A stretch of DNA of 64,000 bases, taken from assembly GCA_964635715.1 (NCBI GenBank), contig CAZWNZ010000002.1:10100-74099 (forward strand), given 5' to 3'. Below are positions 6,050 to 62,408 of the stretch, in pieces. This DNA comes from an uncultured Gammaproteobacteria bacterium. GTDB lineage: Bacteria > Patescibacteriota > Microgenomatia > UBA8517. Both the position numbers and the translations under genes were made by a program. Every line of letters begins with the position of its first letter. Within the stretch, counting starts at the first letter, position 1. Under the pieces are notes generated by a model. The model saw nothing but the letters and a program-made list of their open reading frames with translations, made no database searches and was not told the origin of the DNA.

Positions 6050-6925
6050 ATGAAGAAATATGAATCTGGTCAGGCTTTGGTATTAATACTTCTTTCTCTT
6101 TCGGTTGTTTTAACGATAATTTTATATGTTTTGTCCCGCTCAGTCACAGATATCTCGATTTCCACTCAACAAAATGATTCTGTTAGGGCTTTTTCAGCTG
6201 CTGAGGCCGGAATAGAAAATGCTTTAATTACCGGGGTTGGTACGGGGGGTGATGTGACAATCGGTGATGCTACTTATTCGGTCGAAGTTTTAAATTCAGG
6301 CTCTACGACGTTTAATTATCCAGACTCTATGCTTTCCGGAGATACGATGACTTTATGGTTTGTTTCTCACAAAAGCGATGGTAGTTTAACTTGTGGCTCA
6401 GGGTATCCTGCATGTTTTACCGGAAATACTGTCAAAGTTTGTTGGGGAAAGTCGGGAACATCATCTTCCGGTACATCAACTCCGGCTCTTGAGGTTAGTG
6501 TTTATTACGAATCTATTCCAGGAGACCTTTCCAGTATAAAAGTTGTTCGATCTACATACGACCCGAATGCTTCCAGAATTTCCTCGAATTCTTTCGGGTC
6601 TGCAGTGACAAGTTTGTGTACAATAGACGGAATCGGTTATGCATTTCAAAATACAATAACTTTGTCGGAATTGGGAGGTGTGAGTTTTAACAATAATGGT
6701 TTATTGTTTGCAAAAATTAAAATGTTATATAACACCGATGTGGCACATCCTATCGGTTTTAGCGCTTCCGAAGCTCTTCCTTCTCAAGGGCTAGAGGTTG
6801 TTTCGACAGGAACTTCCGGTGCCGGAAGTAGTCAAAGCAATCGCAAAATTAGCGTATTTCAGGGTTGGGCGGAGTTTCCTCTCAGCGGTTTTTCACTTCT
6901 GGTTCCAGCTGGAATTACAAAATAG
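6050..6925 (+). CDS. PilX-like minor pilin / pilus tip-associated protein
   Basis: N-terminus MKKYESGQALVLILLSLSVVLTII followed by ...AFSAAEAGIENAL resembles the PilX N-terminal domain. About 290 aa. Confidence 0.45.
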   Translation: MKKYESGQALVLILLSLSVVLTIILYVLSRSVTDISISTQQNDSVRAFSAAEAGIENALITGVGTGGDVTIGDATYSVEVLNSGSTTFNYPDSMLSGDTMTLWFVSHKSDGSLTCGSGYPACFTGNTVKVCWGKSGTSSSGTSTPALEVSVYYESIPGDLSSIKVVRSTYDPNASRISSNSFGSAVTSLCTIDGIGYAFQNTITLSELGGVSFNNNGLLFAKIKMLYNTDVAHPIGFSASEALPSQGLEVVSTGTSGAGSSQSNRKISVFQGWAEFPLSGFSLLVPAGITK

Positions 6926-6985
6926 GATAGTTAGTTATCCTTGACGTTTAGGTGTTTTTTATTGTTAAATGAACTATATACTGCC

Positions 6986-7999
6986 ATGTTAGGAATAGAT
7001 ATCGGAAGTAAAACTATTAAGATTGTAGAACTTGAAAAAAACGGAGCTTCATATACGTTATCTGCTTCGGGAGTTGTTGGATATTCAGGTGTGAGTGTGG
7101 ACAAAATGACCATCGACAAAGAAATGTCGACTTTTGCTCAAGTGATTAAAAAACTGTGTACTGAGGCGCGTGTATCCACCAAAGAAGTTGTTCTTTCTAT
7201 CCCGGAATCACTAACGTTTACCCGTACAATTAAATTTCCTGCATTAACTGATAGTGAGATTGCCTCTGCTATAAAATGGGAAGCTGAACAATATATACCC
7301 ATTCCCGTTAATGAAGCAATTATTCAACATACTGTATTAAAACGGGATAGTTCGGGTGGGGCGAATTCCGGGGTAATAGTCCTTTTGGTTGCTGCCCCTC
7401 GGGTAATTGTTGAAAAATATGTTAAAGTTGCTCAATTGGCGGGTTTGACTCCTGTTGCGGTAGAGACAGAACTTATAGCTCTGACACGCTCACTTGCACC
7501 CATAGATAAGACTGTCCTTTTGGCTGATTTGGGAGGATCTTCGACAAATCTGGCGATTGTGAATCATGGTTTGTTATCATTTTCCCGATCTTTACCTGTA
7601 GCCGGAGACGCTTTCACCAGAGCTGTATCACAGGGTCTTGCAATTACTCCCCAACAAGCAGAGGAATATAAAAAAGCATACGGCATGTCCGCGAATCAAC
7701 TCGAAGGAAAAATTAAAAGTGCCTTAGATTCTGTGGTACGTATAGTGGCCGATGAAATTAAAAAAGCCGTTAATTATTATTTAACAGAAGAAAGAGGTGA
7801 AATGCCGACGTCTCTTATTATGTCTGGTGGTTCAAGTGGTATGCCTGAGATGATCTCAAATTTTACTCAAGTTGTTGGTATGGAAGTTTTAGTTGCCAAT
7901 CCCTTTGCTCGTGTTCATATGGATGCGGGATTGATGCAAAAACTAGCACCATTCGCACCACTTTATGGGGTAGCTGTAGGTTTGGCAATGCGTGAATAG
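6986..7999 (+). CDS. pilM: Type IV pilus assembly protein PilM (actin-like ATPase fold)
   Basis: MLGIDIGSKTIKIVEL... actin/FtsA-like phosphate-1 motif. ATG at 6986 is preferred over 6941. Confidence 0.8.
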   Translation: MLGIDIGSKTIKIVELEKNGASYTLSASGVVGYSGVSVDKMTIDKEMSTFAQVIKKLCTEARVSTKEVVLSIPESLTFTRTIKFPALTDSEIASAIKWEAEQYIPIPVNEAIIQHTVLKRDSSGGANSGVIVLLVAAPRVIVEKYVKVAQLAGLTPVAVETELIALTRSLAPIDKTVLLADLGGSSTNLAIVNHGLLSFSRSLPVAGDAFTRAVSQGLAITPQQAEEYKKAYGMSANQLEGKIKSALDSVVRIVADEIKKAVNYYLTEERGEMPTSLIMSGGSSGMPEMISNFTQVVGMEVLVANPFARVHMDAGLMQKLAPFAPLYGVAVGLAMRE

Positions 8000-33550: not shown

Positions 33551-33660
33551 TCGCCTTTTACAGAACTATCCGTTCACGGCTCGTGCTACATTTTGTACGG
33601 GACTGCGCATTATTGATATAGTTTTTGGTGCTTGATTCGTATTTTCTTCGGGTTGATAAT

Positions 33661-33673
33661 AGTACAAAGTACT
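33661..33673 (+). promoter_or_regulatory. Candidate SOS operator (AGTAC-N3-GTACT palindrome)
   Basis: tAGTACaaaGTACTtggtac lies 17 nt upstream of the small ORF preceding the Y-family polymerase gene. It matches the cyanobacterial-type LexA box RGTAC-N3-DGTWCB. Confidence 0.3.
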
Positions 33674-33689
33674 TGGTACATAGAAAAAG

Positions 33690-33917
33690 ATGAAAATTGA
33701 TGAAAAAGTTGAGGTTGGGTTTAATGGTTATCCCAGATGGGTAAAATGGAAAAATAAGGTATACAAAGTTGAAAAACTAGGGCTCCACCACACTTATCAT
33801 GAGGGAAAAATCCTTTATCACGTCTTTTCAGTAGCCACAAAAACTCTTTTTATGAGATTGATTTTAGATACTGATATTTTAAGTTGGAAATTAACTGATA
33901 TTGAAAATGGAATTTAA
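33690..33917 (+). CDS. Hypothetical 75-aa protein translationally coupled to the Y-family polymerase gene
   Basis: MKIDEKVEVGFNGYPRWVKWKNKVYKVEKLGLHHTYHEGKILYHVFSV... overlaps the polymerase gene start by ~10-17 nt. Confidence 0.4.
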   Translation: MKIDEKVEVGFNGYPRWVKWKNKVYKVEKLGLHHTYHEGKILYHVFSVATKTLFMRLILDTDILSWKLTDIENGI

Positions 33918-35151
33918 TTCTGCCCCGAGCAATTGCCTGCATTTAGACCTAAATTCCTGCTTTGCTTCCATCGAACAGCAGGCCAATCCCTTTCTGCGTG
34001 GCAAACCTTTGGTTGTTGCGGCTTTTAATTCATATAAAGGTTGTATTTTGGCTTCATCAATCGAGGCAAAGCGCTTGGGTATAAAAACCGGTATGTGGGT
34101 TGGTGAAGCTCAAAAAATCTATCCCAAGCTCAAAGTTCTCACCCCTGATCCTTGGAAATACAGAAATGTCCATTTAAAGTTAAGGAAACTTATTTCAGAA
34201 TACACAAACGATTTTTCTCCCAAATCAATTGATGAATTTGTACTCAATCTGGAAAACTACAATGCACTGTCAGCAGGTAGCATGCAGCAAGTAGCAAGGG
34301 AAATAAAAGATAGGATAAAAAGTGAAATTGGGGAATGGCTCACTGTTTCTATCGGCATTGCCCCTAACAGATATTTGGCGAAAATCGGTGCGGGGTTACA
34401 TAAGCCTGATGGTCTAGATGAAATAAATAAAGATAATTTCAAAGAAATCTATTCAAAACTAAAGTTGACAGATTTAACAGGTATAAAAGAGCGAAACGCT
34501 GCACGACTGGCTTCTTTGGGCATTTATTCAGTCTTAGACTTTTATGAAGCTCCGATTTGGAGGCTAAAAGCTGCATTTCATTCAATTGCAGGACTTTATT
34601 GGCATATGAGACTTTCCGGTTATGAAATCGACAATTTTGAAAGCCGGAGGAGCAGTTTTGGCAATTCGGTAGCAATAGGCAAAAATATAGCAAATATTGA
34701 AGAACTTTCCCCCATCCTTGCTAGGCTTACGGAGAAGACCTGTAGCAGGTTGAGAAGCGCCGGTTTTACAGCCGGTGGAATTCACTTAACGTTGGTTTAT
34801 AAAGATGGCTCATTTTGGCATAAGGGAAGGCGACTTTCTGAAAACAGATTTGACACACGTGATATTTATAAAGCTGCTTATAGACTGTTAATCGAAGCCA
34901 AACCTCAAACTCCGGTACTTAATATTGCGATTTCTTGTTTTGATTTGAGTACTGGTAGCAAGCTTCAGTTGGGACTTTTTGAGAATGAAGCCAAAAAAGA
35001 AAAATTGGTCAAGTCTGAAGATTTAATTAATCGCCGTTATGGAGATTTTACTGTGGCTTCAGCCAAAAGTTTTGGTGGAGCAAAGATTGTTCTTGATAGA
35101 ATTGCTTTTGGTGGAGTGAGAGAGTTGGAAGAATTCAGTTTAAATTCCTGA
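33907..35151 (+). CDS. dinB: Y-family DNA polymerase (DinB/Pol IV-like)
   Basis: LHLDLNSCFASIEQ (D-x-D/N-CFFA-like catalytic motif), then SIEAKRLGIKTGM and little-finger domains. About 415 aa. Confidence 0.8.
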   Translation: MEFNSAPSNCLHLDLNSCFASIEQQANPFLRGKPLVVAAFNSYKGCILASSIEAKRLGIKTGMWVGEAQKIYPKLKVLTPDPWKYRNVHLKLRKLISEYTNDFSPKSIDEFVLNLENYNALSAGSMQQVAREIKDRIKSEIGEWLTVSIGIAPNRYLAKIGAGLHKPDGLDEINKDNFKEIYSKLKLTDLTGIKERNAARLASLGIYSVLDFYEAPIWRLKAAFHSIAGLYWHMRLSGYEIDNFESRRSSFGNSVAIGKNIANIEELSPILARLTEKTCSRLRSAGFTAGGIHLTLVYKDGSFWHKGRRLSENRFDTRDIYKAAYRLLIEAKPQTPVLNIAISCFDLSTGSKLQLGLFENEAKKEKLVKSEDLINRRYGDFTVASAKSFGGAKIVLDRIAFGGVRELEEFSLNS

Positions 35152-36414: not shown

Positions 36415-36449
36415 GTAAAAAAGAAGGGGGATACCTTTCGGTACCCCCC
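36415..36449 (-). terminator. Hairpin plus U-run between the two lysozyme-like paralogs
   Basis: Minus strand GGGGGGTACCGAAAGGTATCCCCC followed by TTCTTTTTT. A TTGACA-N17-TATAGT promoter-like element lies upstream on the minus strand at ~36500-36530. Confidence 0.4.
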
Positions 36450-36568
36450 AAATATAATCCCAACGCCGAGATCATGTTTCCATGCCTAAGCCTCGGAATG
36501 TGTAAGTACTATAGCATAGTACTACAGGATTGTCAAGCTTATAGATAGATAATCTATAGTTAATGAAG

Positions 36569-37204
36569 TTATTGCATATCTTGCATAAAAGCACTTACGC
36601 CGTTGGCCCAGGAACCATTGCTCAAAGGAGTGTATTTGGACATAATTTCTTCAATAGTTGAATAACCTTTATTTAAATATTCTTCTCTTAGACCGTAACT
36701 AACGGTTTCTATGCCTTCACTAAATGACTCAAAACCAAGGGTTCCTTTGCTGTGTATTCCCCACCCCCAACAATTATACGAATCTACAGGAATAATCTTA
36801 CACAAGTTACTTTCTTGCTGAGCAATAGCTGTTACAAGACGAAAATCAATTGAATACTTGTCAGCAGTTTCGACAATAAATTCAGCATAAGGTACAAGTG
36901 GTGAGTTGTATCTTTCCAGATACTGCTTGACTATTTGAGGTCTGGCATCCGCCGATTCGATTGAAGAAGACACACTTGGAATATTAGAAGGAAGTGAGGC
37001 GTAAACACTGATTCCTGATTTGGGTGAAACTACAAGATTTGTTGTATTAAATTTCTTCTCCAAGACATCGTTTTTCTCCAAAGAAAAAAGCGAAAAAAGA
37101 CTAACACCTATGGTTAACGGAGTAATTGCAAAAAAAACTGCTATAAGAACAATGTTTTTCCAAAAACCAAAATCTTCTTGCCCAATTTGTGAGTACCCTT
37201 TCAT
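36569..37204 (-). CDS. Secreted lysozyme-like / lytic-transglycosylase-like protein (paralog 2)
   Basis: N-terminal TM, then NSPLVPYAEFIVETADKYSIDFRLVTAIAQQESNLCK...NCWGWGI, which parallels paralog 1 (AIAQQES motif). Confidence 0.45.
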   Translation of the reverse strand: MKGYSQIGQEDFGFWKNIVLIAVFFAITPLTIGVSLFSLFSLEKNDVLEKKFNTTNLVVSPKSGISVYASLPSNIPSVSSSIESADARPQIVKQYLERYNSPLVPYAEFIVETADKYSIDFRLVTAIAQQESNLCKIIPVDSYNCWGWGIHSKGTLGFESFSEGIETVSYGLREEYLNKGYSTIEEIMSKYTPLSNGSWANGVSAFMQDMQ

Positions 37205-59062: not shown

Positions 59063-59371
59063 ATGAAGAAACTTCCCCAGAAAATACAAGTCAAAGTAAT
59101 TAAAAATCGTAAAACAGGCGTATATCTTGCCGAACTCCCGGATTTTGATATTTTTACAGAATCGGATAGTTTTAGTGGTTTAGTTTTTCAGGTAAACGAT
59201 TTGATTTACACATATTTTGATATTCCTGAGAAGAATCACGGAGAAATTTGGTATATGCCTCCGCAGGTACCCTCATTAACTGAACAACAAAATCCTCCAG
59301 TTGATCCAATTTTATTCCACATACTAACTTCGGATGGCAATTTCTCTTCATGCCTAAATGGGAAAGTATAA
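59063..59371 (+). CDS. hicB: HicB-like antitoxin (UPF0150 fold, no appended DNA-binding domain)
   Basis: MKKLPQKIQVKVIKNRKTGVYLAELPDFDIFTESDSFSGLVFQVNDLIYTYF matches the HicB N-domain pattern (..Y.A.VP.LPG....G.T.EEAL). Overlaps hicA by 14 nt. Confidence 0.55.
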   Translation: MKKLPQKIQVKVIKNRKTGVYLAELPDFDIFTESDSFSGLVFQVNDLIYTYFDIPEKNHGEIWYMPPQVPSLTEQQNPPVDPILFHILTSDGNFSSCLNGKV

Positions 59372-59612
59372 TTTTGGTTCAAGGGATCTTTGTAAATTTT
59401 TGACCAGTCGAAAATTTGTTTCTAACAAAGTAAATGGTTCTAGTCATCAAAAATATAATTTACCTAAAAATGTGCAGTGTCCTTCAGGGTTTAGACCTTT
59501 TATAATTGTGACATTAGGTAGGAAACAATATGATCCACACACTTCATCTAGTTACATTAGACAATTAAAAAACCTTGGTATTACAGATGAAGAACTGAAA
59601 GATTTGGTTTAA
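59358..59612 (+). CDS. hicA: HicA-like mRNA interferase toxin (YcfA family)
   Basis: ...VNGSSHQKYNLPKN...FIIVTLGRKQYDPHTSSSYIRQLKNLGITDEELKDLV shows the GSHH and helix motifs of HicA. Confidence 0.55.
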   Translation: MGKYNFGSRDLCKFLTSRKFVSNKVNGSSHQKYNLPKNVQCPSGFRPFIIVTLGRKQYDPHTSSSYIRQLKNLGITDEELKDLV

Positions 59613-61627
59613 CCAATCTCTTTAATTTTGTCCCTAATATCCGCTGCAAGTTCAAAATTTAGGTCTTGGGCGGCGAGGCGCATTTCGGTGGTCAGGTTTT
59701 TCACCAAGCGCTTTTTCTCCATAGGCGTCATGGCGTCTAAGTCCAAATGAGGCAGGCTTTCAAACATCGGTTCTTTACTGCCAAAAACCCAGGGGGCTTT
59801 TTCACCCTCGGTTCTATCTATTAGCTTCTCACGAATGGGCTTACTTATACTCTTTGGAGTGATTTTGTGCTTTTTGTTGTAGGCCAACTGGTATTCACGC
59901 CTGCGCTTGACCTCGCTCAGGGCTCTTTCCATGGAGCCGGTGATTCTATCGGCATACATAATTACGCGTCCCTCAACGTGTCTGGCGGCCCTACCCATCG
60001 TCTGAATGAGCGTTACGTCGGATCTTAAGAATCCTTCTTTATCCGCATCAAGTATGGCTACCAGGCTCACCTCGGGAAGGTCTAAACCCTCACGAAGCAG
60101 GTTAATTCCGACCAAAACATCATATTTTCCGGCTCTAAGATCATCCAGAATATCTCCTCTATCAAGCGTGGCCACATCCGAGTGTAAATACTGTACTTTC
60201 AAGCCCTGTTCATTTAAGTAAGCAGTCAAATCCTCAGCCGTGCGCTTTGTCATGGTTGTCACAAGTGTTCTTTGTTTTTTGGCTACAACCTTTTTAATTT
60301 CGGTAATTACATCCGCCACCTGATTTTTAATCGGTTTAATTTCAACTAGAGGGTCAGGAATACCTGTCGGACGTACCAATATTTCGGTGGTTTTGCCTCC
60401 ACTCATGCTTATTTCCCAATCGTTTGGAGTGGCTGAGCTAGCTATAAAATTCGGGACTCTCCTCATAAATTCATCAAATTTTAGAGGTCGATTATCCAAG
60501 GCCGAGGGAAGCCGAAATCCATAATCAATAAGTGTCTGTTTTCTGGCCAAATCCCCATTAAACATGCCTCGGATTTGAGGAAAAGTCATGTGGGACTCGT
60601 CTACCATAAGCATCCAATCGTTGCCGTAAGGCTCGTTAAAGTAGTCGAGTAAGGAAAAAGGAGCGTCCCCGGGAGATCTTCCGTCAAAATATCTGGAATA
60701 ATTTTCAATTCCTTTTACATAACCAACCTCCTTAATCATTTCAATATCGTAAGTAACTTTTTGGGCCAAACGGTGTGCCTCAAGCATTTTTCCTTCTTTT
60801 TTTAACTCTTTTACGCGAATATCAAGGTCATTCATCATTGCGGCAAAAGCGTCGTCATAGCTTTCAGGATCTGTCATAAAATGCTTGGCAGGGTATAAAA
60901 CAAAGTTTCCATTTGCCAGTTGCCAGTTATCAGTTAATTCACCAGTTAATGAATTAATTGCAGTCACCGATTTTATTGAATCCTCGTTAAACTCAATTCT
61001 GACGGCATCATCCATGTAGGCCGGATAAATATCAATTGAGTCTCCGCGAACTCTGAATGTTCCCCTATCGAATCCAAATTCGCTTCTCTCGTACTGTAAA
61101 TCCACAATTCTGTCGATAATTTGCTGGCGCTTTATCTTCATTCCGGAAGTAATTTCCAGAACAAACTTACCGTATTTTTTGGGAGAGCCAATGTTGTAAA
61201 TACATGAAACTGAGGCTACAACTATTGAGTCACGGCGCGTTAAAAGATTAGCGGTTGCCGCGAGCCTAAGCTTATCAATTGTCTCGTTGATGTCTGCGTC
61301 TTTTTCGATATATGTATCTGTGGAAGGAATATATGCTTCAGGCTGGTAGTAATCATAGTATGAAACAAAGTAGCTGACTGCGTTTTCAGGGAAAAGATCC
61401 CTCATTTCCTGGTAGAGTTGAGCTGCTAAGGTTTTGTTGTGGGAGATAATAAGAGTTGGTCGTTGAACTTTTTCAATCATATTAGCCATAGTAAAAGTCT
61501 TTCCAGAGCCGGTTACACCAAGAAGTGTCTGATATTTATTACCACGCTCAAGTTCCCCGGAAAGCGAGGCAACAGCACGCTCCTGATCAGGAATCATTTT
61601 GTAATTTGTCTGAAGTTTAAATTTCAC
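59609..61627 (-). CDS. uvrB: Excinuclease ABC subunit B
   Basis: MKFKLQTNY...QTLLGVTGSGKTFTMANMI Walker A, a beta-hairpin region, helicase motifs, and a C-terminal UVR domain. Confidence 0.95.
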   Translation of the reverse strand: MKFKLQTNYKMIPDQERAVASLSGELERGNKYQTLLGVTGSGKTFTMANMIEKVQRPTLIISHNKTLAAQLYQEMRDLFPENAVSYFVSYYDYYQPEAYIPSTDTYIEKDADINETIDKLRLAATANLLTRRDSIVVASVSCIYNIGSPKKYGKFVLEITSGMKIKRQQIIDRIVDLQYERSEFGFDRGTFRVRGDSIDIYPAYMDDAVRIEFNEDSIKSVTAINSLTGELTDNWQLANGNFVLYPAKHFMTDPESYDDAFAAMMNDLDIRVKELKKEGKMLEAHRLAQKVTYDIEMIKEVGYVKGIENYSRYFDGRSPGDAPFSLLDYFNEPYGNDWMLMVDESHMTFPQIRGMFNGDLARKQTLIDYGFRLPSALDNRPLKFDEFMRRVPNFIASSATPNDWEISMSGGKTTEILVRPTGIPDPLVEIKPIKNQVADVITEIKKVVAKKQRTLVTTMTKRTAEDLTAYLNEQGLKVQYLHSDVATLDRGDILDDLRAGKYDVLVGINLLREGLDLPEVSLVAILDADKEGFLRSDVTLIQTMGRAARHVEGRVIMYADRITGSMERALSEVKRRREYQLAYNKKHKITPKSISKPIREKLIDRTEGEKAPWVFGSKEPMFESLPHLDLDAMTPMEKKRLVKNLTTEMRLAAQDLNFELAADIRDKIKEIG

Positions 61628-61763
61628 CCATATATTTTATCACGAATTTTTACTTGTGTATTTGGGATATGTTCGGGTTTGTATGACTAAGATGTAGTTG
61701 ACGTCTTCGGGTAATGTTTGTAAATTGACTATAACATCTCATAACTACAATAACTTGTGGTGA

Positions 61764-62408
61764 GTGAGTGAAACGAATCGAATCATGGCACTAATAGTCT
61801 ATAGCAAGCAAAGACAAATTTTGGGATTTATCAAACAATATATTGAACTTAATGGCTCTGCGCCTACACTAAAGAAAATTGCGGAAGCCATTGGTGTTTC
61901 TTCTTTAGCAACTGTTCACGAACATCTCCAAGCTCTGGAGGCAAAAGGGCTTATTAAAAGAAAACAAGGAAAGGCACGTTCGATAGAACTTATTGAAGGA
62001 GATACGGATTTAATAAAAGCCGAGAATTTCAATGCTCCAATCCTTGGATTTATTGCTGCAGGTATGCCAATCGAACCCTATACAGATCCGAATGCTTCGA
62101 TGAATATTCCGGCAGCTTTTGTGACGGGCGTCAAAAGAACATACGTTTTACAGGTTAGAGGTGAAAGTATGATAGAAGACGGCATTATGGATGGAGATAA
62201 TGTTATTGTTGAGCAGACCGACAGTGCCCATGATGGTGATGTTGTGGTTGCACTTCTCGATAATGGAATGGCTACACTTAAAAGATTTTATAAAGAAGCC
62301 ACACGTATTCGTTTGCAGCCGGCAAATTCCACAATGCAGCCTATTTTTGTTAAAAATGTCAGGATTCAAGGCAAAGTGGTCGGACTTGTAAGAAAGTACA
62401 AAAACTGA
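61764..62408 (+). CDS. lexA: LexA repressor (S24 peptidase)
   Basis: N-terminal winged HTH (TLKKIAEAIGVSSLATVHEHLQALEAKGLIKR), an A-G cleavage-region analog, GESM Ser nucleophile, and Lys in ...TLKRFYKE. Confidence 0.85.
   Translation: MSETNRIMALIVYSKQRQILGFIKQYIELNGSAPTLKKIAEAIGVSSLATVHEHLQALEAKGLIKRKQGKARSIELIEGDTDLIKAENFNAPILGFIAAGMPIEPYTDPNASMNIPAAFVTGVKRTYVLQVRGESMIEDGIMDGDNVIVEQTDSAHDGDVVVALLDNGMATLKRFYKEATRIRLQPANSTMQPIFVKNVRIQGKVVGLVRKYKN

What the first reader, a model, noticed from the sequence alone, without database searches (positions are those of the whole stretch)
33551..35151. Putative SOS-type mutagenesis cassette: LexA-box-like palindrome, a small coupled ORF, and a Y-family polymerase
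tAGTAC-aaa-GTACT (33661-33673) matches the cyanobacterial-type LexA operator RGTAC-N3-DGTWCB. It lies 17 nt upstream of a 75-aa ORF that overlaps the start of a DinB-like polymerase. This resembles umuD-umuC / yolD-uvrX arrangements, in which a small accessory protein is co-transcribed with the polymerase. The same window encodes lexA, uvrA, uvrB, uvrC and recG, but their upstream regions share only an extended -10 (GTGATAWAAT). This may be the clearest operator in the regulon.
Basis: inference. Interest (0 to 1): 0.5.

Follow-up and report, generated by a model that had tools for sequence, protein, structure and literature searches.

The report
SOS-controlled translesion polymerase operon, operator misassigned

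Summary
The sequence features are real: AGTACAAAGTACT at 33661-33673, a 75-aa ORF (33690-33917), and an overlapping Y-family polymerase gene (33907-35151).

The palindrome is not the operator:
- It does not fit the cyanobacterial consensus, because the half-site spacing is off by one base.
- It is absent upstream of the same operon in 63 related genomes and upstream of lexA in 71 relatives.
- In the closest relatives it is part of a period-7 tandem repeat (NNAGTAC)n with 0 to 4.6 copies.

The conserved element is a direct repeat, TTCGG-N6-TTCGG. The window copy is TTCGTATTTTCTTCGGG at 33636-33652. It fills the spacer of a TTGATT-17-GATAAT promoter.

A matrix built only from polymerase-operon promoters finds the same motif upstream of lexA in 57 of 71 relatives, about 760-fold enriched over the rest of those loci. 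It also finds two sites in the window's lexA-uvrB intergenic region.

The small protein is neither UmuD-like nor YolD-like. It is a confidently modelled all-beta protein with weak, recurrent similarity to Pfam DUF6504. I showed that DUF6504 covers the ImuB C-terminal domain (ImuB-C).

Standalone ImuB-C plus polymerase operons, often with lexA, are already described, and a direct-repeat LexA motif has been reported for Patescibacteria. Verdict: the cassette idea is supported, the operator is wrong, and this is a new member of a known kind.

The parts
33632..33660 (+). Sigma-70-type promoter of the operon: -35 TTGATT (33632-33637), 17-nt spacer, -10 GATAAT (33655-33660)
   Evidence: Consensus scan. 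The same -35/spacer/-10 layout (cTTGAC - 17 nt - TATAAA) is conserved in homologous loci.
33636..33652 (+). Probable LexA operator: direct repeat TTCGT-ATTTTC-TTCGG(G), period 11, filling the promoter spacer
   Evidence: Best matrix hit in the window, 22.1 bits. Found de novo in 61 of 63 homologous upstream regions. TTCGT.TTTT.TTCGGG is invariant in the 10 closest relatives. The same motif lies upstream of lexA in relatives.
33661..33681 (+). Three copies of a heptamer tandem repeat (AGTACAA AGTACTT GGTACAT). It lies around the predicted transcription start and in the 5' leader.
   Evidence: Copy number varies from 0 to 4.6 among the closest relatives. It is absent from all 63 more distant operon upstreams and 71 lexA upstreams. 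The RNA hairpin in the window is weak: -2.4 kcal/mol, z -0.55.
33690..33917 (+). 75-aa small protein, a divergent standalone ImuB-C (DUF6504)-like all-beta protein and the probable polymerase accessory subunit
   Evidence: 39 close homologues and 453 cluster representatives. Followed by the polymerase gene in 61 of 63 genome loci. AlphaFold2 pLDDT 92.9 with 7 strands. DUF6504 hits in 34 of 147 representatives, one above the Pfam cut-off. DUF6504 maps to the ImuB C-terminus.
33907..35151 (+). 414-aa Y-family DNA polymerase, catalytically competent, with a RecA-NT-like motif and a conserved C-terminal tail. Its start overlaps the small ORF by 11 nt.
   Evidence: Pfam IMS and IMS_C. It falls below every NCBIfam Pol IV and UmuC cut-off. 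The HxDLNSCFA and SIDEF motifs, the LVxxxDxINxRWG motif and the tail DRIAFGGVKELEEF are conserved in 57 homologues.
61661..61677 (+). Second copy of the direct repeat (TTTGGGATATGTTCGGG) in the lexA-uvrB intergenic region, 34-50 nt from the uvrB start codon
   Evidence: 17.8 bits. A site at the equivalent position (-71 to -79 from the lexA ATG) occurs in most relatives. uvrB is divergent from lexA in 65 of 80 loci.
61698..61726 (+). lexA promoter (TTGACG-17-TAAATT), with the direct repeat TTCGGGTAATGTTTGTA (61706-61722) inside its spacer
   Evidence: 12.8 bits. De novo motif search on lexA upstreams of relatives gives TTGACATATTCGGGTAATATTCGTATA.
61785..62408 (+). lexA, a canonical repressor with a LexA DNA-binding domain and an S24 peptidase domain. 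The likely ATG is at 61785; the ORF as listed starts at GTG 61764.
   Evidence: NCBIfam TIGR00498 scores 192.9 bits against a cut-off of 110.95. Pfam LexA_DNA_bind and Peptidase_S24.

Best explanation
The region is a LexA-repressed translesion-synthesis operon of a Microgenomates (Woesebacteria-like, Patescibacteria/CPR) bacterium.

Regulation: a sigma-70-type promoter (TTGATT-17-GATAAT, 33632-33660) carries in its spacer a direct repeat, TTCGT-N6-TTCGG (33636-33652). This repeat is the lineage's LexA box. LexA bound there would block RNA polymerase. After DNA damage, RecA-stimulated LexA self-cleavage would free the promoter.

Products: the transcript encodes a 75-aa all-beta protein distantly related to the ImuB C-terminal domain (ImuB-C / DUF6504). 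Overlapping it by 11 nt, and so probably translationally coupled, is an active Y-family polymerase. The polymerase carries a RecA-NT-like motif and a conserved C-terminal tail. By analogy with UmuD'2C-RecA, YolD-UvrX-RecA and ImuB-C-PolY modules, the small protein is most likely a non-catalytic partner that docks on the polymerase.

It is not the operator.

Shown here: the anatomy, conservation, synteny, motif sharing with lexA, and family similarities. Inferred: LexA binding, damage induction, complex formation, and the role of the small protein.
For: Synteny: the small ORF is immediately followed by the polymerase gene in 61 of 63 loci from Woesebacteria, Collierbacteria, Gottesmanbacteria and Shapirobacteria genomes.

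Operator:
- De novo Gibbs sampling on the upstream regions finds TTGAC-TTCGGGTTTTATTCGGG-TATA in 61 of 63.
- A 17-nt matrix built from those sites (20.6 bits) gives the window's top hits at 33636 (22.1 bits) and 61661 (17.8 bits) in the lexA-uvrB spacer, plus 61706 (12.8 bits) in the lexA promoter. Three hits reach 16 bits, against 0.2 expected.
- In 71 independently fetched lexA loci, 57 have a hit of at least 14 bits within 200 nt upstream. All but one are in the lexA orientation, most at about -26 to -28 and -71 to -79 from the ATG.
- Hit density is 4.57 per kb upstream against 0.006 per kb elsewhere in those loci.
- Gibbs sampling on the lexA upstreams alone recovers TTCGGGTAATATTCGTATA.
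- Both window promoters hold the repeat inside a 17-nt spacer.
- Across about 1.1 Mb of related loci, nearly all sites of at least 16 bits precede lexA or the small ORF.

Small protein:
- DUF6504 is the only recurrent Pfam match: 7 of 40 and 34 of 147 members, best E-value 1.2e-5. P0189 scores 25.4 bits against a cut-off of 24.2.
- DUF6504 maps to residues 427-481 of a bona fide ImuB from an imuA-imuB-dnaE2 cassette. Homologues of that C-terminus are labelled PF20114 or 'protein ImuB'.
- Reciprocal HMM searches score above shuffled controls: 25 of 266 against 8 of 1330, and 16 of 115 against 0 of 575, at 5 bits or more.
- The protein is about 75-86 aa, all-beta, and has an invariant C-terminal Trp (W66). 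These features match the published description of ImuB-C (PMC3765255).

Polymerase: the catalytic Asp and Asp-Glu are conserved, as is a RecA-NT-like motif followed by the tail DRIAFGGVKELEEF.

Literature: standalone ImuB-C plus DinB-type operons, often with lexA, are described in PMC3765255, PMC6511836 and PMC12926913. Patescibacterial LexA is cited as recognising a direct repeat (PMC7739468, citing Sanchez-Osuna et al. 2017).
Against: - No experiment supports this. LexA binding and damage induction are inferred from autoregulation logic only.
- The window's own small protein gives no Pfam hit.
- Profile-profile alignment to alphaproteobacterial ImuB-C is weak and covers only the N-terminal half (hhalign P 0.0011, probability 20%, 33 columns). 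Homology to ImuB-C is therefore probable, not proven.
- The published Patescibacteria LexA consensus could not be read, because the paper is not held. Identity with TTCGG-N6-TTCGG is unverified.
- uvrA and recG in the window have no site, so the regulon is small.
- The RecA-NT-like motif was recognised by eye, not by a model.
Confidence: 0.78

Rival explanations
1. One reading: AGTAC-AAA-GTACT (33661-33673) is a cyanobacterial-type palindromic LexA operator controlling the cassette.
For: A perfect 5+5 palindrome lies between the -10 and the start codon. It is partly kept in four of the ten closest relatives.
Against: - It does not match RGTAC-N3-DGTWCB.
- It is absent from the lexA, uvrA, uvrB and recG upstreams in the window, from 63 homologous operon upstreams and from 71 lexA upstreams.
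- It is missing, or differs in copy number, in close relatives that keep the promoter and direct repeat unchanged.
Confidence: 0.03
2. The direct repeat is not a LexA site. It is either the operator of another regulator or a promoter-class element, for example for an alternative sigma factor, that happens to be shared by lexA and the polymerase operon.
For: In both window promoters the repeat sits exactly in the -35/-10 spacer, so it could be read as promoter architecture. No binding data exist.
Against: - Many loci carry additional copies outside a promoter spacer. Examples are between the -10 and the start codon in L008, L016, L029, L040 and L048, and at -71 to -79 upstream of lexA.
- Presence on the repressor's own gene plus a translesion polymerase is the classic core of the SOS regulon (PMC8565304).
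- A direct-repeat LexA motif is reported for this superphylum (PMC7739468).
Confidence: 0.1
3. The GTAC heptamer array is a functional 5'-leader element that acts alongside LexA control, either as an RNA hairpin affecting mRNA stability or translation, or as the site of a second DNA-binding protein.
For: In four-copy relatives the array folds as a nested hairpin: L148 -10.5 kcal/mol, z -4.5; L159 -8.9 kcal/mol, z -2.9. L148 has a compensatory AGCAC/GTGCT inner stem.
Against: - In the window the hairpin is only -2.4 kcal/mol with z -0.55.
- The predicted start, about 7 nt after the -10, would leave the first arm untranscribed.
- The element is absent in L157, L158, L145 and L160 and in all more distant relatives, many of which look leaderless.
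- Only one compensatory event was seen.
Confidence: 0.12
4. The 75-aa ORF is a conserved but functionally unrelated upstream gene, or a regulatory leader peptide, rather than a polymerase subunit.
For: No interaction data exist. In some relatives the two genes are 100-1400 nt apart (L017, L023, L025, L033). L033 has a separate site in front of the polymerase gene.
Against: - It is a well-folded domain: pLDDT 92.9, with 12 invariant and 11 further near-invariant (>=90%) residues.
- Linkage to the polymerase holds in 61 of 63 loci across several candidate phyla.
- It shows similarity to ImuB-C, a domain fused to or encoded next to Y-family polymerases.
- The polymerase has a strongly conserved C-terminal tail of the kind that binds small subunits in Pol V-type complexes (PMC6511836).
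Confidence: 0.1

Closest known systems
Standalone ImuB-C plus Y-family polymerase operons, such as Geobacter sulfurreducens lexA-GSU0042(imuB-C)-dinB and the 'PolY-[ImuB-C]-RecA' module (Aravind 2013, PMC3765255; Timinskas & Venclovas 2019, PMC6511836; PMC12926913)
   Same: - A small (about 80 aa) all-beta protein is encoded immediately upstream of an active Y-family polymerase that carries a RecA-NT-like motif.
- The operon is linked to LexA control.
- DnaE2 and ImuA are not encoded in the ±6 kb fetched around these loci, as far as looked.
- DUF6504 similarity.
   Different: - The CPR proteins are very divergent. The window protein itself has no Pfam hit, and similarity is mostly to the N-terminal half of DUF6504.
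- lexA is not in the operon; it lies 27 kb away, divergent from uvrB.
- The lineage (Microgenomates) is not in the complete-genome surveys cited; 'Patescibacteria' and 'CPR' have 0 occurrences in PMC12926913.
Patescibacteria SOS regulon with a direct-repeat LexA-binding motif (Sanchez-Osuna, Barbe & Erill 2017, Environ Microbiol 19:3465; cited in PMC7739468 and PMC8565304)
   Same: - Same superphylum.
- The LexA motif is described as a direct repeat rather than a palindrome.
- Translesion polymerases are core SOS targets.
   Different: I could not read that paper. Whether its consensus equals TTCGG-N6-TTCGG, and whether it lists this small ORF, is unverified.
Alphaproteobacterial LexA box GTTC-N7-GTTC
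   Same: A direct repeat of a TTC-containing core with an 11-bp period. The window site can be read as aTTC-N7-cTTC.
   Different: The core here is TTCGG, with an invariant G at position 4 in 61 of 61 sites. No evidence of common descent was sought.
umuDC (Pol V) and yolD-uvrX / yqjX-yqjW operons
   Same: - A small gene sits upstream of, and is coupled to, a LexA-controlled Y-family polymerase gene.
- The polymerase has a RecA-NT-like motif and a conserved C-terminal tail.
   Different: - The small protein has no S24 peptidase domain and no YolD (PF08863) similarity.
- There is no sign of a self-cleavage site.
- The polymerase scores far below the UmuC model (75 against 431 bits).
Cyanobacterial LexA box RGTAC-N3-DGTWCB
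   Same: It contains GTAC cores.
   Different: The spacing differs by one base and there is no strict match. The element is not conserved and is not found at lexA.

Membership tests
LexA (SOS) regulon member | The operator motif is shared with the promoter of lexA itself (autoregulation). | tested here: met
The direct repeat TTCGG-N6-TTYGK occurs at 33636-33652 and at 61661 and 61706 upstream of lexA. It is found in 57 of 71 lexA upstreams of relatives, about 760-fold enriched.
LexA (SOS) regulon member | The operator is placed so that a bound repressor blocks the promoter. | tested here: met
   The repeat fills the 17-nt spacer of TTGATT-17-GATAAT and of the lexA promoter TTGACG-17-TAAATT.
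LexA (SOS) regulon member | LexA binds the site and transcription is induced by DNA damage. | not testable with these tools
   This needs EMSA or a reporter assay, and the organisms are uncultivated.
Cyanobacterial-type LexA box | A match to RGTAC-N3-DGTWCB. | tested here: not met
   There are 0 matches in the window, including at 33661-33673. There are 0 of 63 and 0 of 71 in the upstreams of relatives.
UmuD | An S24 peptidase (LexA-like self-cleaving) domain. | tested here: not met
   No Pfam or NCBIfam hit for the 75-aa protein. No Peptidase_S24 hit in 40 or 147 family members. At 75 aa it is too short.
YolD-like (PF08863) | Sequence similarity to the YolD family profile. | tested here: not met
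ImuB-C / DUF6504 (PF20114) | A match to the family profile. | tested here: inconclusive
   - The window protein has no hit.
- 34 of 147 family representatives hit DUF6504, best E-value 1.2e-5. One (P0189) scores 25.4 bits, above the 24.2 cut-off.
- hhalign against alphaproteobacterial ImuB-C gives P 0.0011 and probability 20%.
- Reciprocal HMM scores are above shuffled controls.
ImuB-C / DUF6504 (PF20114) | An all-beta domain of about 80 residues with a conserved C-terminal Trp and conserved basic residues (PMC3765255). | tested here: met
   75-86 aa. Seven strands at pLDDT 92.9. W66 is invariant, and there are conserved basic positions (R/K16 after the invariant P15, K/R21). No close PDB fold was found, in line with the 'novel fold' statement in PMC12926913.
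ImuB-C / DUF6504 (PF20114) | Fused to, or encoded next to, a Y-family polymerase in SOS-linked operons. | tested here: met
   61 of 63 loci have the polymerase gene directly downstream, and the LexA-type operator lies upstream.
Y-family DNA polymerase | IMS and IMS_C domains with an intact catalytic Asp and Asp-Glu. | tested here: met
   Pfam 6.9e-36 and 7.2e-15. HxDLN and SIDEF are invariant or near-invariant in 57 homologues.
DinB (Pol IV) or UmuC equivalog | A score above the curated NCBIfam cut-off. | tested here: not met
   The best Pol IV model scores 206.8 bits against a cut-off of 381. UmuC scores 75.1 against 431. This is a distinct Y-family subgroup.
RecA-dependent mutasome (PolY with RecA-NT motif and subunit-binding tail) | A RecA-NT-like motif followed by a conserved C-terminal tail. 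| tested here: inconclusive
   The conserved LVxxxDxINxRWGxF motif and the tail DRIAFGGVKELEEF are seen in the alignment. Assignment as RecA-NT-like is by eye, against the description in PMC6511836.

The most novel reading that the evidence does not exclude
In Microgenomates, with small genomes and no UmuD or YolD homologue next to this polymerase, this divergent and so far unannotated ImuB-C-like protein family (453 cluster representatives, all labelled 'hypothetical') is the obligate small subunit of a minimal Pol V-like mutasome. It would dock on the invariant polymerase tail DRIAFGGVKELEEF and act with RecA. The whole SOS regulon would be reduced to little more than lexA, uvrB and this operon.
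Probability: 0.4. Interest if true: 0.45.

Novelty: new member of a known kind. Interest (0 to 1): 0.3.

Why it matters
It corrects an operator assignment. In this lineage, SOS-regulon predictions should use a TTCGG-N6-TTCGG direct repeat, not a GTAC palindrome.

It gives a name to a widespread 'hypothetical' small protein of candidate-phyla-radiation bacteria, as an ImuB-C-like polymerase partner.

It extends the known ImuB-C plus Y-family polymerase module to organisms with very reduced genomes. There the damage-inducible network seems to shrink to the repressor, uvrB and one error-prone polymerase. That is consistent with the published view that translesion synthesis is the core function of the SOS response, but it is not a new principle.

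Tried and rejected
- The strict cyanobacterial consensus search found no match.
- Searches for any GTAC-type dyad upstream of lexA/uvrB, uvrA or recG, and in 134 upstream regions of relatives, found none.
- A profile search of the family against PDB sequences found nothing.
- A profile search of the 5.8-billion protein set with 147 family members reached no annotated relatives.
- The ImuB-C alignment in the supplement of PMC3765255 was cut off in the stored file.
- I guessed locations for imuB on the Ralstonia GMI1000 megaplasmid and on Deinococcus deserti plasmid 1, and missed. I then found ImuB through an E. coli DnaE search against plasmid DnaE2.
- The matrix hit at 36447-36463 was considered as a third regulon member. 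It was put aside because it overlaps a terminator-like hairpin.
- TRF did not call the three-copy array in the window, but it did call the 4.6-copy array in L159.
- Sanchez-Osuna et al. 2017 could not be read.
- 'DUF6504' and 'PF20114' occur in no held paper.
Full report
**What is there.**
- The window has 38% G+C. Homologues of its genes come from Woesebacteria and other Microgenomates of the Patescibacteria/CPR group.
- At 33661-33673 the sequence reads AGTACAAAGTACT, as reported.
- The ATG of a 75-aa ORF (33690-33917) follows after 16 nt.
- The ATG at 33907 of a 414-aa protein overlaps the end of that ORF by 11 nt.
- The larger protein has the Pfam IMS and IMS_C domains of Y-family polymerases (6.9e-36 and 7.2e-15).
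- It scores well below every curated Pol IV or UmuC model (best 206.8 bits against a cut-off of 381; UmuC 75 against 431).

**The palindrome is not the operator.**
- The cyanobacterial consensus RGTAC-N3-DGTWCB has no match anywhere in the window. The site has three bases between its GTAC cores, and the consensus needs four.
- The sequence is really three GTAC cores at a 7-nt period: AGTACAA AGTACTT GGTACAT (33661-33681).
- No GTAC dyad of any of four tested forms occurs upstream of lexA/uvrB, uvrA or recG in the window. None occurs in 63 homologous operon upstreams or in 71 lexA upstreams of relatives.
- The ten closest relatives have small proteins 73-84% identical, and in all of them the promoter is unchanged. 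The GTAC element, however, varies from 4.6 tandem heptamer copies (L159, TRF period 7) through 3 and 1 to none (L157, L158). L145 and L160 have a different leader.
- The 'palindrome' therefore arises because two adjacent copies of a repeat with the self-complementary core GTAC read the same on both strands.
- As RNA, the window copy folds weakly (-2.4 kcal/mol, z -0.55).
- Four-copy relatives fold better (down to -10.5 kcal/mol, z -4.5), and one shows a compensatory change. A leader-hairpin role in those relatives is not excluded.

**The conserved element.**
- The small ORF was used to fetch 63 loci from species-representative genomes.
- De novo Gibbs sampling on their upstream regions converged on TTGAC-TTCGGGTTTTATTCGGG-TATA in 61 of 63. 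The two misses are loci cut at a contig end.
- The element is a direct repeat of TTCGG with an 11-bp period. It occupies the 17-nt spacer between a -35 and a -10 hexamer.
- The window copy is TTCGTATTTTCTTCGGG (33636-33652), inside TTGATT-17-GATAAT (33632-33660).
- Many relatives have the start codon 7-12 nt after the -10 and so look leaderless. Several carry a second copy just downstream.

**Link to LexA.**
- A 17-position matrix was built only from the polymerase-operon sites. After the operon's own site, its best hits in the window are 61661-61677 (17.8 bits) and 61706-61722 (12.8 bits). Both lie in the 136-nt lexA-uvrB intergenic region.
- The second of these sits inside the spacer of the lexA promoter TTGACG-17-TAAATT.
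- Three hits reach 16 bits, against 0.2 expected from Markov-simulated sequence.
- As an independent test, 80 lexA loci (60-92% identical LexA) were fetched from metagenomes.
- Of the 71 with at least 100 nt upstream, 57 have a hit of 14 bits or more. All but one are in the lexA orientation, most at about -26 to -28 and -71 to -79 from the ATG.
- Hit density is 4.57 per kb in the 200 nt upstream, against 0.006 per kb in the remaining 333 kb.
- Gibbs sampling on the lexA upstreams alone returns TTGACATATTCGGGTAATATTCGTATA.
- uvrB is divergent from lexA in 65 of 80 loci. The distal site lies 20-35 nt from the uvrB start, so uvrB is probably co-regulated.
- Across all fetched loci, nearly every site of 16 bits or more precedes lexA or the small ORF.
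- A motif on the repressor's own gene and on a translesion polymerase operon is the signature of a LexA box.
- One paper (PMC7739468) cites the 2017 Patescibacteria study as a case of LexA recognising a direct repeat. I could not read that study.

**The small protein.**
- It is a real, conserved gene. It has 39 close homologues with 12 invariant residues, 453 cluster representatives at E<=0.001, and a confident AlphaFold2 model (pLDDT 92.9) of seven beta strands.
- It has no S24 peptidase or YolD similarity.
- The only recurrent Pfam match is DUF6504: 7 of 40 close members and 34 of 147 representatives (best 1.2e-5). One member scores above the gathering cut-off (25.4 against 24.2 bits).
- To find out what DUF6504 is, I located imuA-imuB-dnaE2 cassettes on plasmids. 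DUF6504 maps to residues 427-481 of an Agrobacterium ImuB. Homologues of that C-terminus are labelled PF20114 or 'protein ImuB'. DUF6504 is therefore the ImuB-C domain of Aravind et al. (PMC3765255).
- Direct comparison of the CPR family with alphaproteobacterial ImuB-C is weak. hhalign gives P 0.0011 over 33 columns. Scores are still above shuffled controls in both directions.
- Length, all-beta composition and the invariant C-terminal Trp fit the published description.
- I rate membership of the ImuB-C superfamily as probable, at about 0.65.

**The polymerase.**
- In 57 homologues the catalytic motifs HxDLNSCFA and SIDEF are conserved.
- The C-terminus carries LVxxxDxINxRWGxF, which resembles the RecA N-terminal motif described in PMC6511836.
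- An almost invariant tail, DRIAFGGVKELEEF, follows.
- In Pol V and YqjW/UvrX such a tail binds the small subunit. The same is inferred here, but it is not shown.

**Comparison and verdict.**
- Standalone ImuB-C genes next to DinB-type polymerase genes, often with lexA, are known. The Geobacter lexA-imuB-C-polY operon is damage-induced (PMC3765255, PMC6511836). A PolY-[ImuB-C]-RecA module is listed among putative mutasomes (PMC12926913).
- The present case is a divergent CPR member of that kind, under a direct-repeat LexA box.
The operator and the UmuD/YolD analogy at the family level are not.
- Interest is modest.

Noticed in passing
window 33661-33681; L159 365-396; L147, L144, L148 leaders: A heptamer tandem repeat (NNAGTAC)n at the transcription start and leader varies from 0 to 4.6 copies among close relatives. 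In four-copy relatives it folds as a nested hairpin (z down to -4.5), and L148 has one compensatory change.
   Followed up: partly
L007 ~5903, L013 ~5999, L017 ~5963, L035 ~5978 (minus strand): In several relatives the first codons of the small ORF (M-x-Q-K/R-I-S-E-P) read on the opposite strand as a high-scoring direct-repeat site (20-22 bits). This would be an inverted second site over the start codon.
   Followed up: no
L043, L044, L050, L054, L058 (between the operator and the small ORF): In Collierbacteria-type loci an insert of roughly 100-150 nt with terminal inverted repeats (GTCATTCCCGACC...GGGAATCC) separates the promoter and operator from the small ORF. It looks like a miniature transposable element.
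   Followed up: no
L023 ~1156-2604 and L025 ~6192-7680: About 1.4 kb is inserted between the small ORF and the polymerase gene. The insert has its own direct-repeat site on the opposite strand (TTCGTATATTATTCGGT, 20.3 bits).
   Followed up: no
window 36428-36463 (minus strand): A terminator-like hairpin, GGGGGGTACCgaaaGGTATCCCCC plus a T-run, follows ORF 36569-37204. A 16.5-bit matrix hit (36447-36463) overlaps it and recurs identically in L003 upstream of the homologous secreted protein. It is probably not an operator.
   Followed up: partly
window 61627-61785: The divergent lexA-uvrB arrangement, with two direct-repeat sites in a short spacer, is conserved in 65 of 80 relatives. The uvrB promoter is an extended -10 (TGATAAAAT) only a few nt from the GTG start, which suggests a leaderless mRNA.
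   Followed up: partly
window ~59064-59610 (+ strand): Two small ORFs lie between uvrA and uvrB. They were not examined.
   Followed up: no
whole window: GTAC is about two-fold under-represented: 110 occurrences against 223 expected from base composition. This makes three copies within 21 nt stand out.
   Followed up: no
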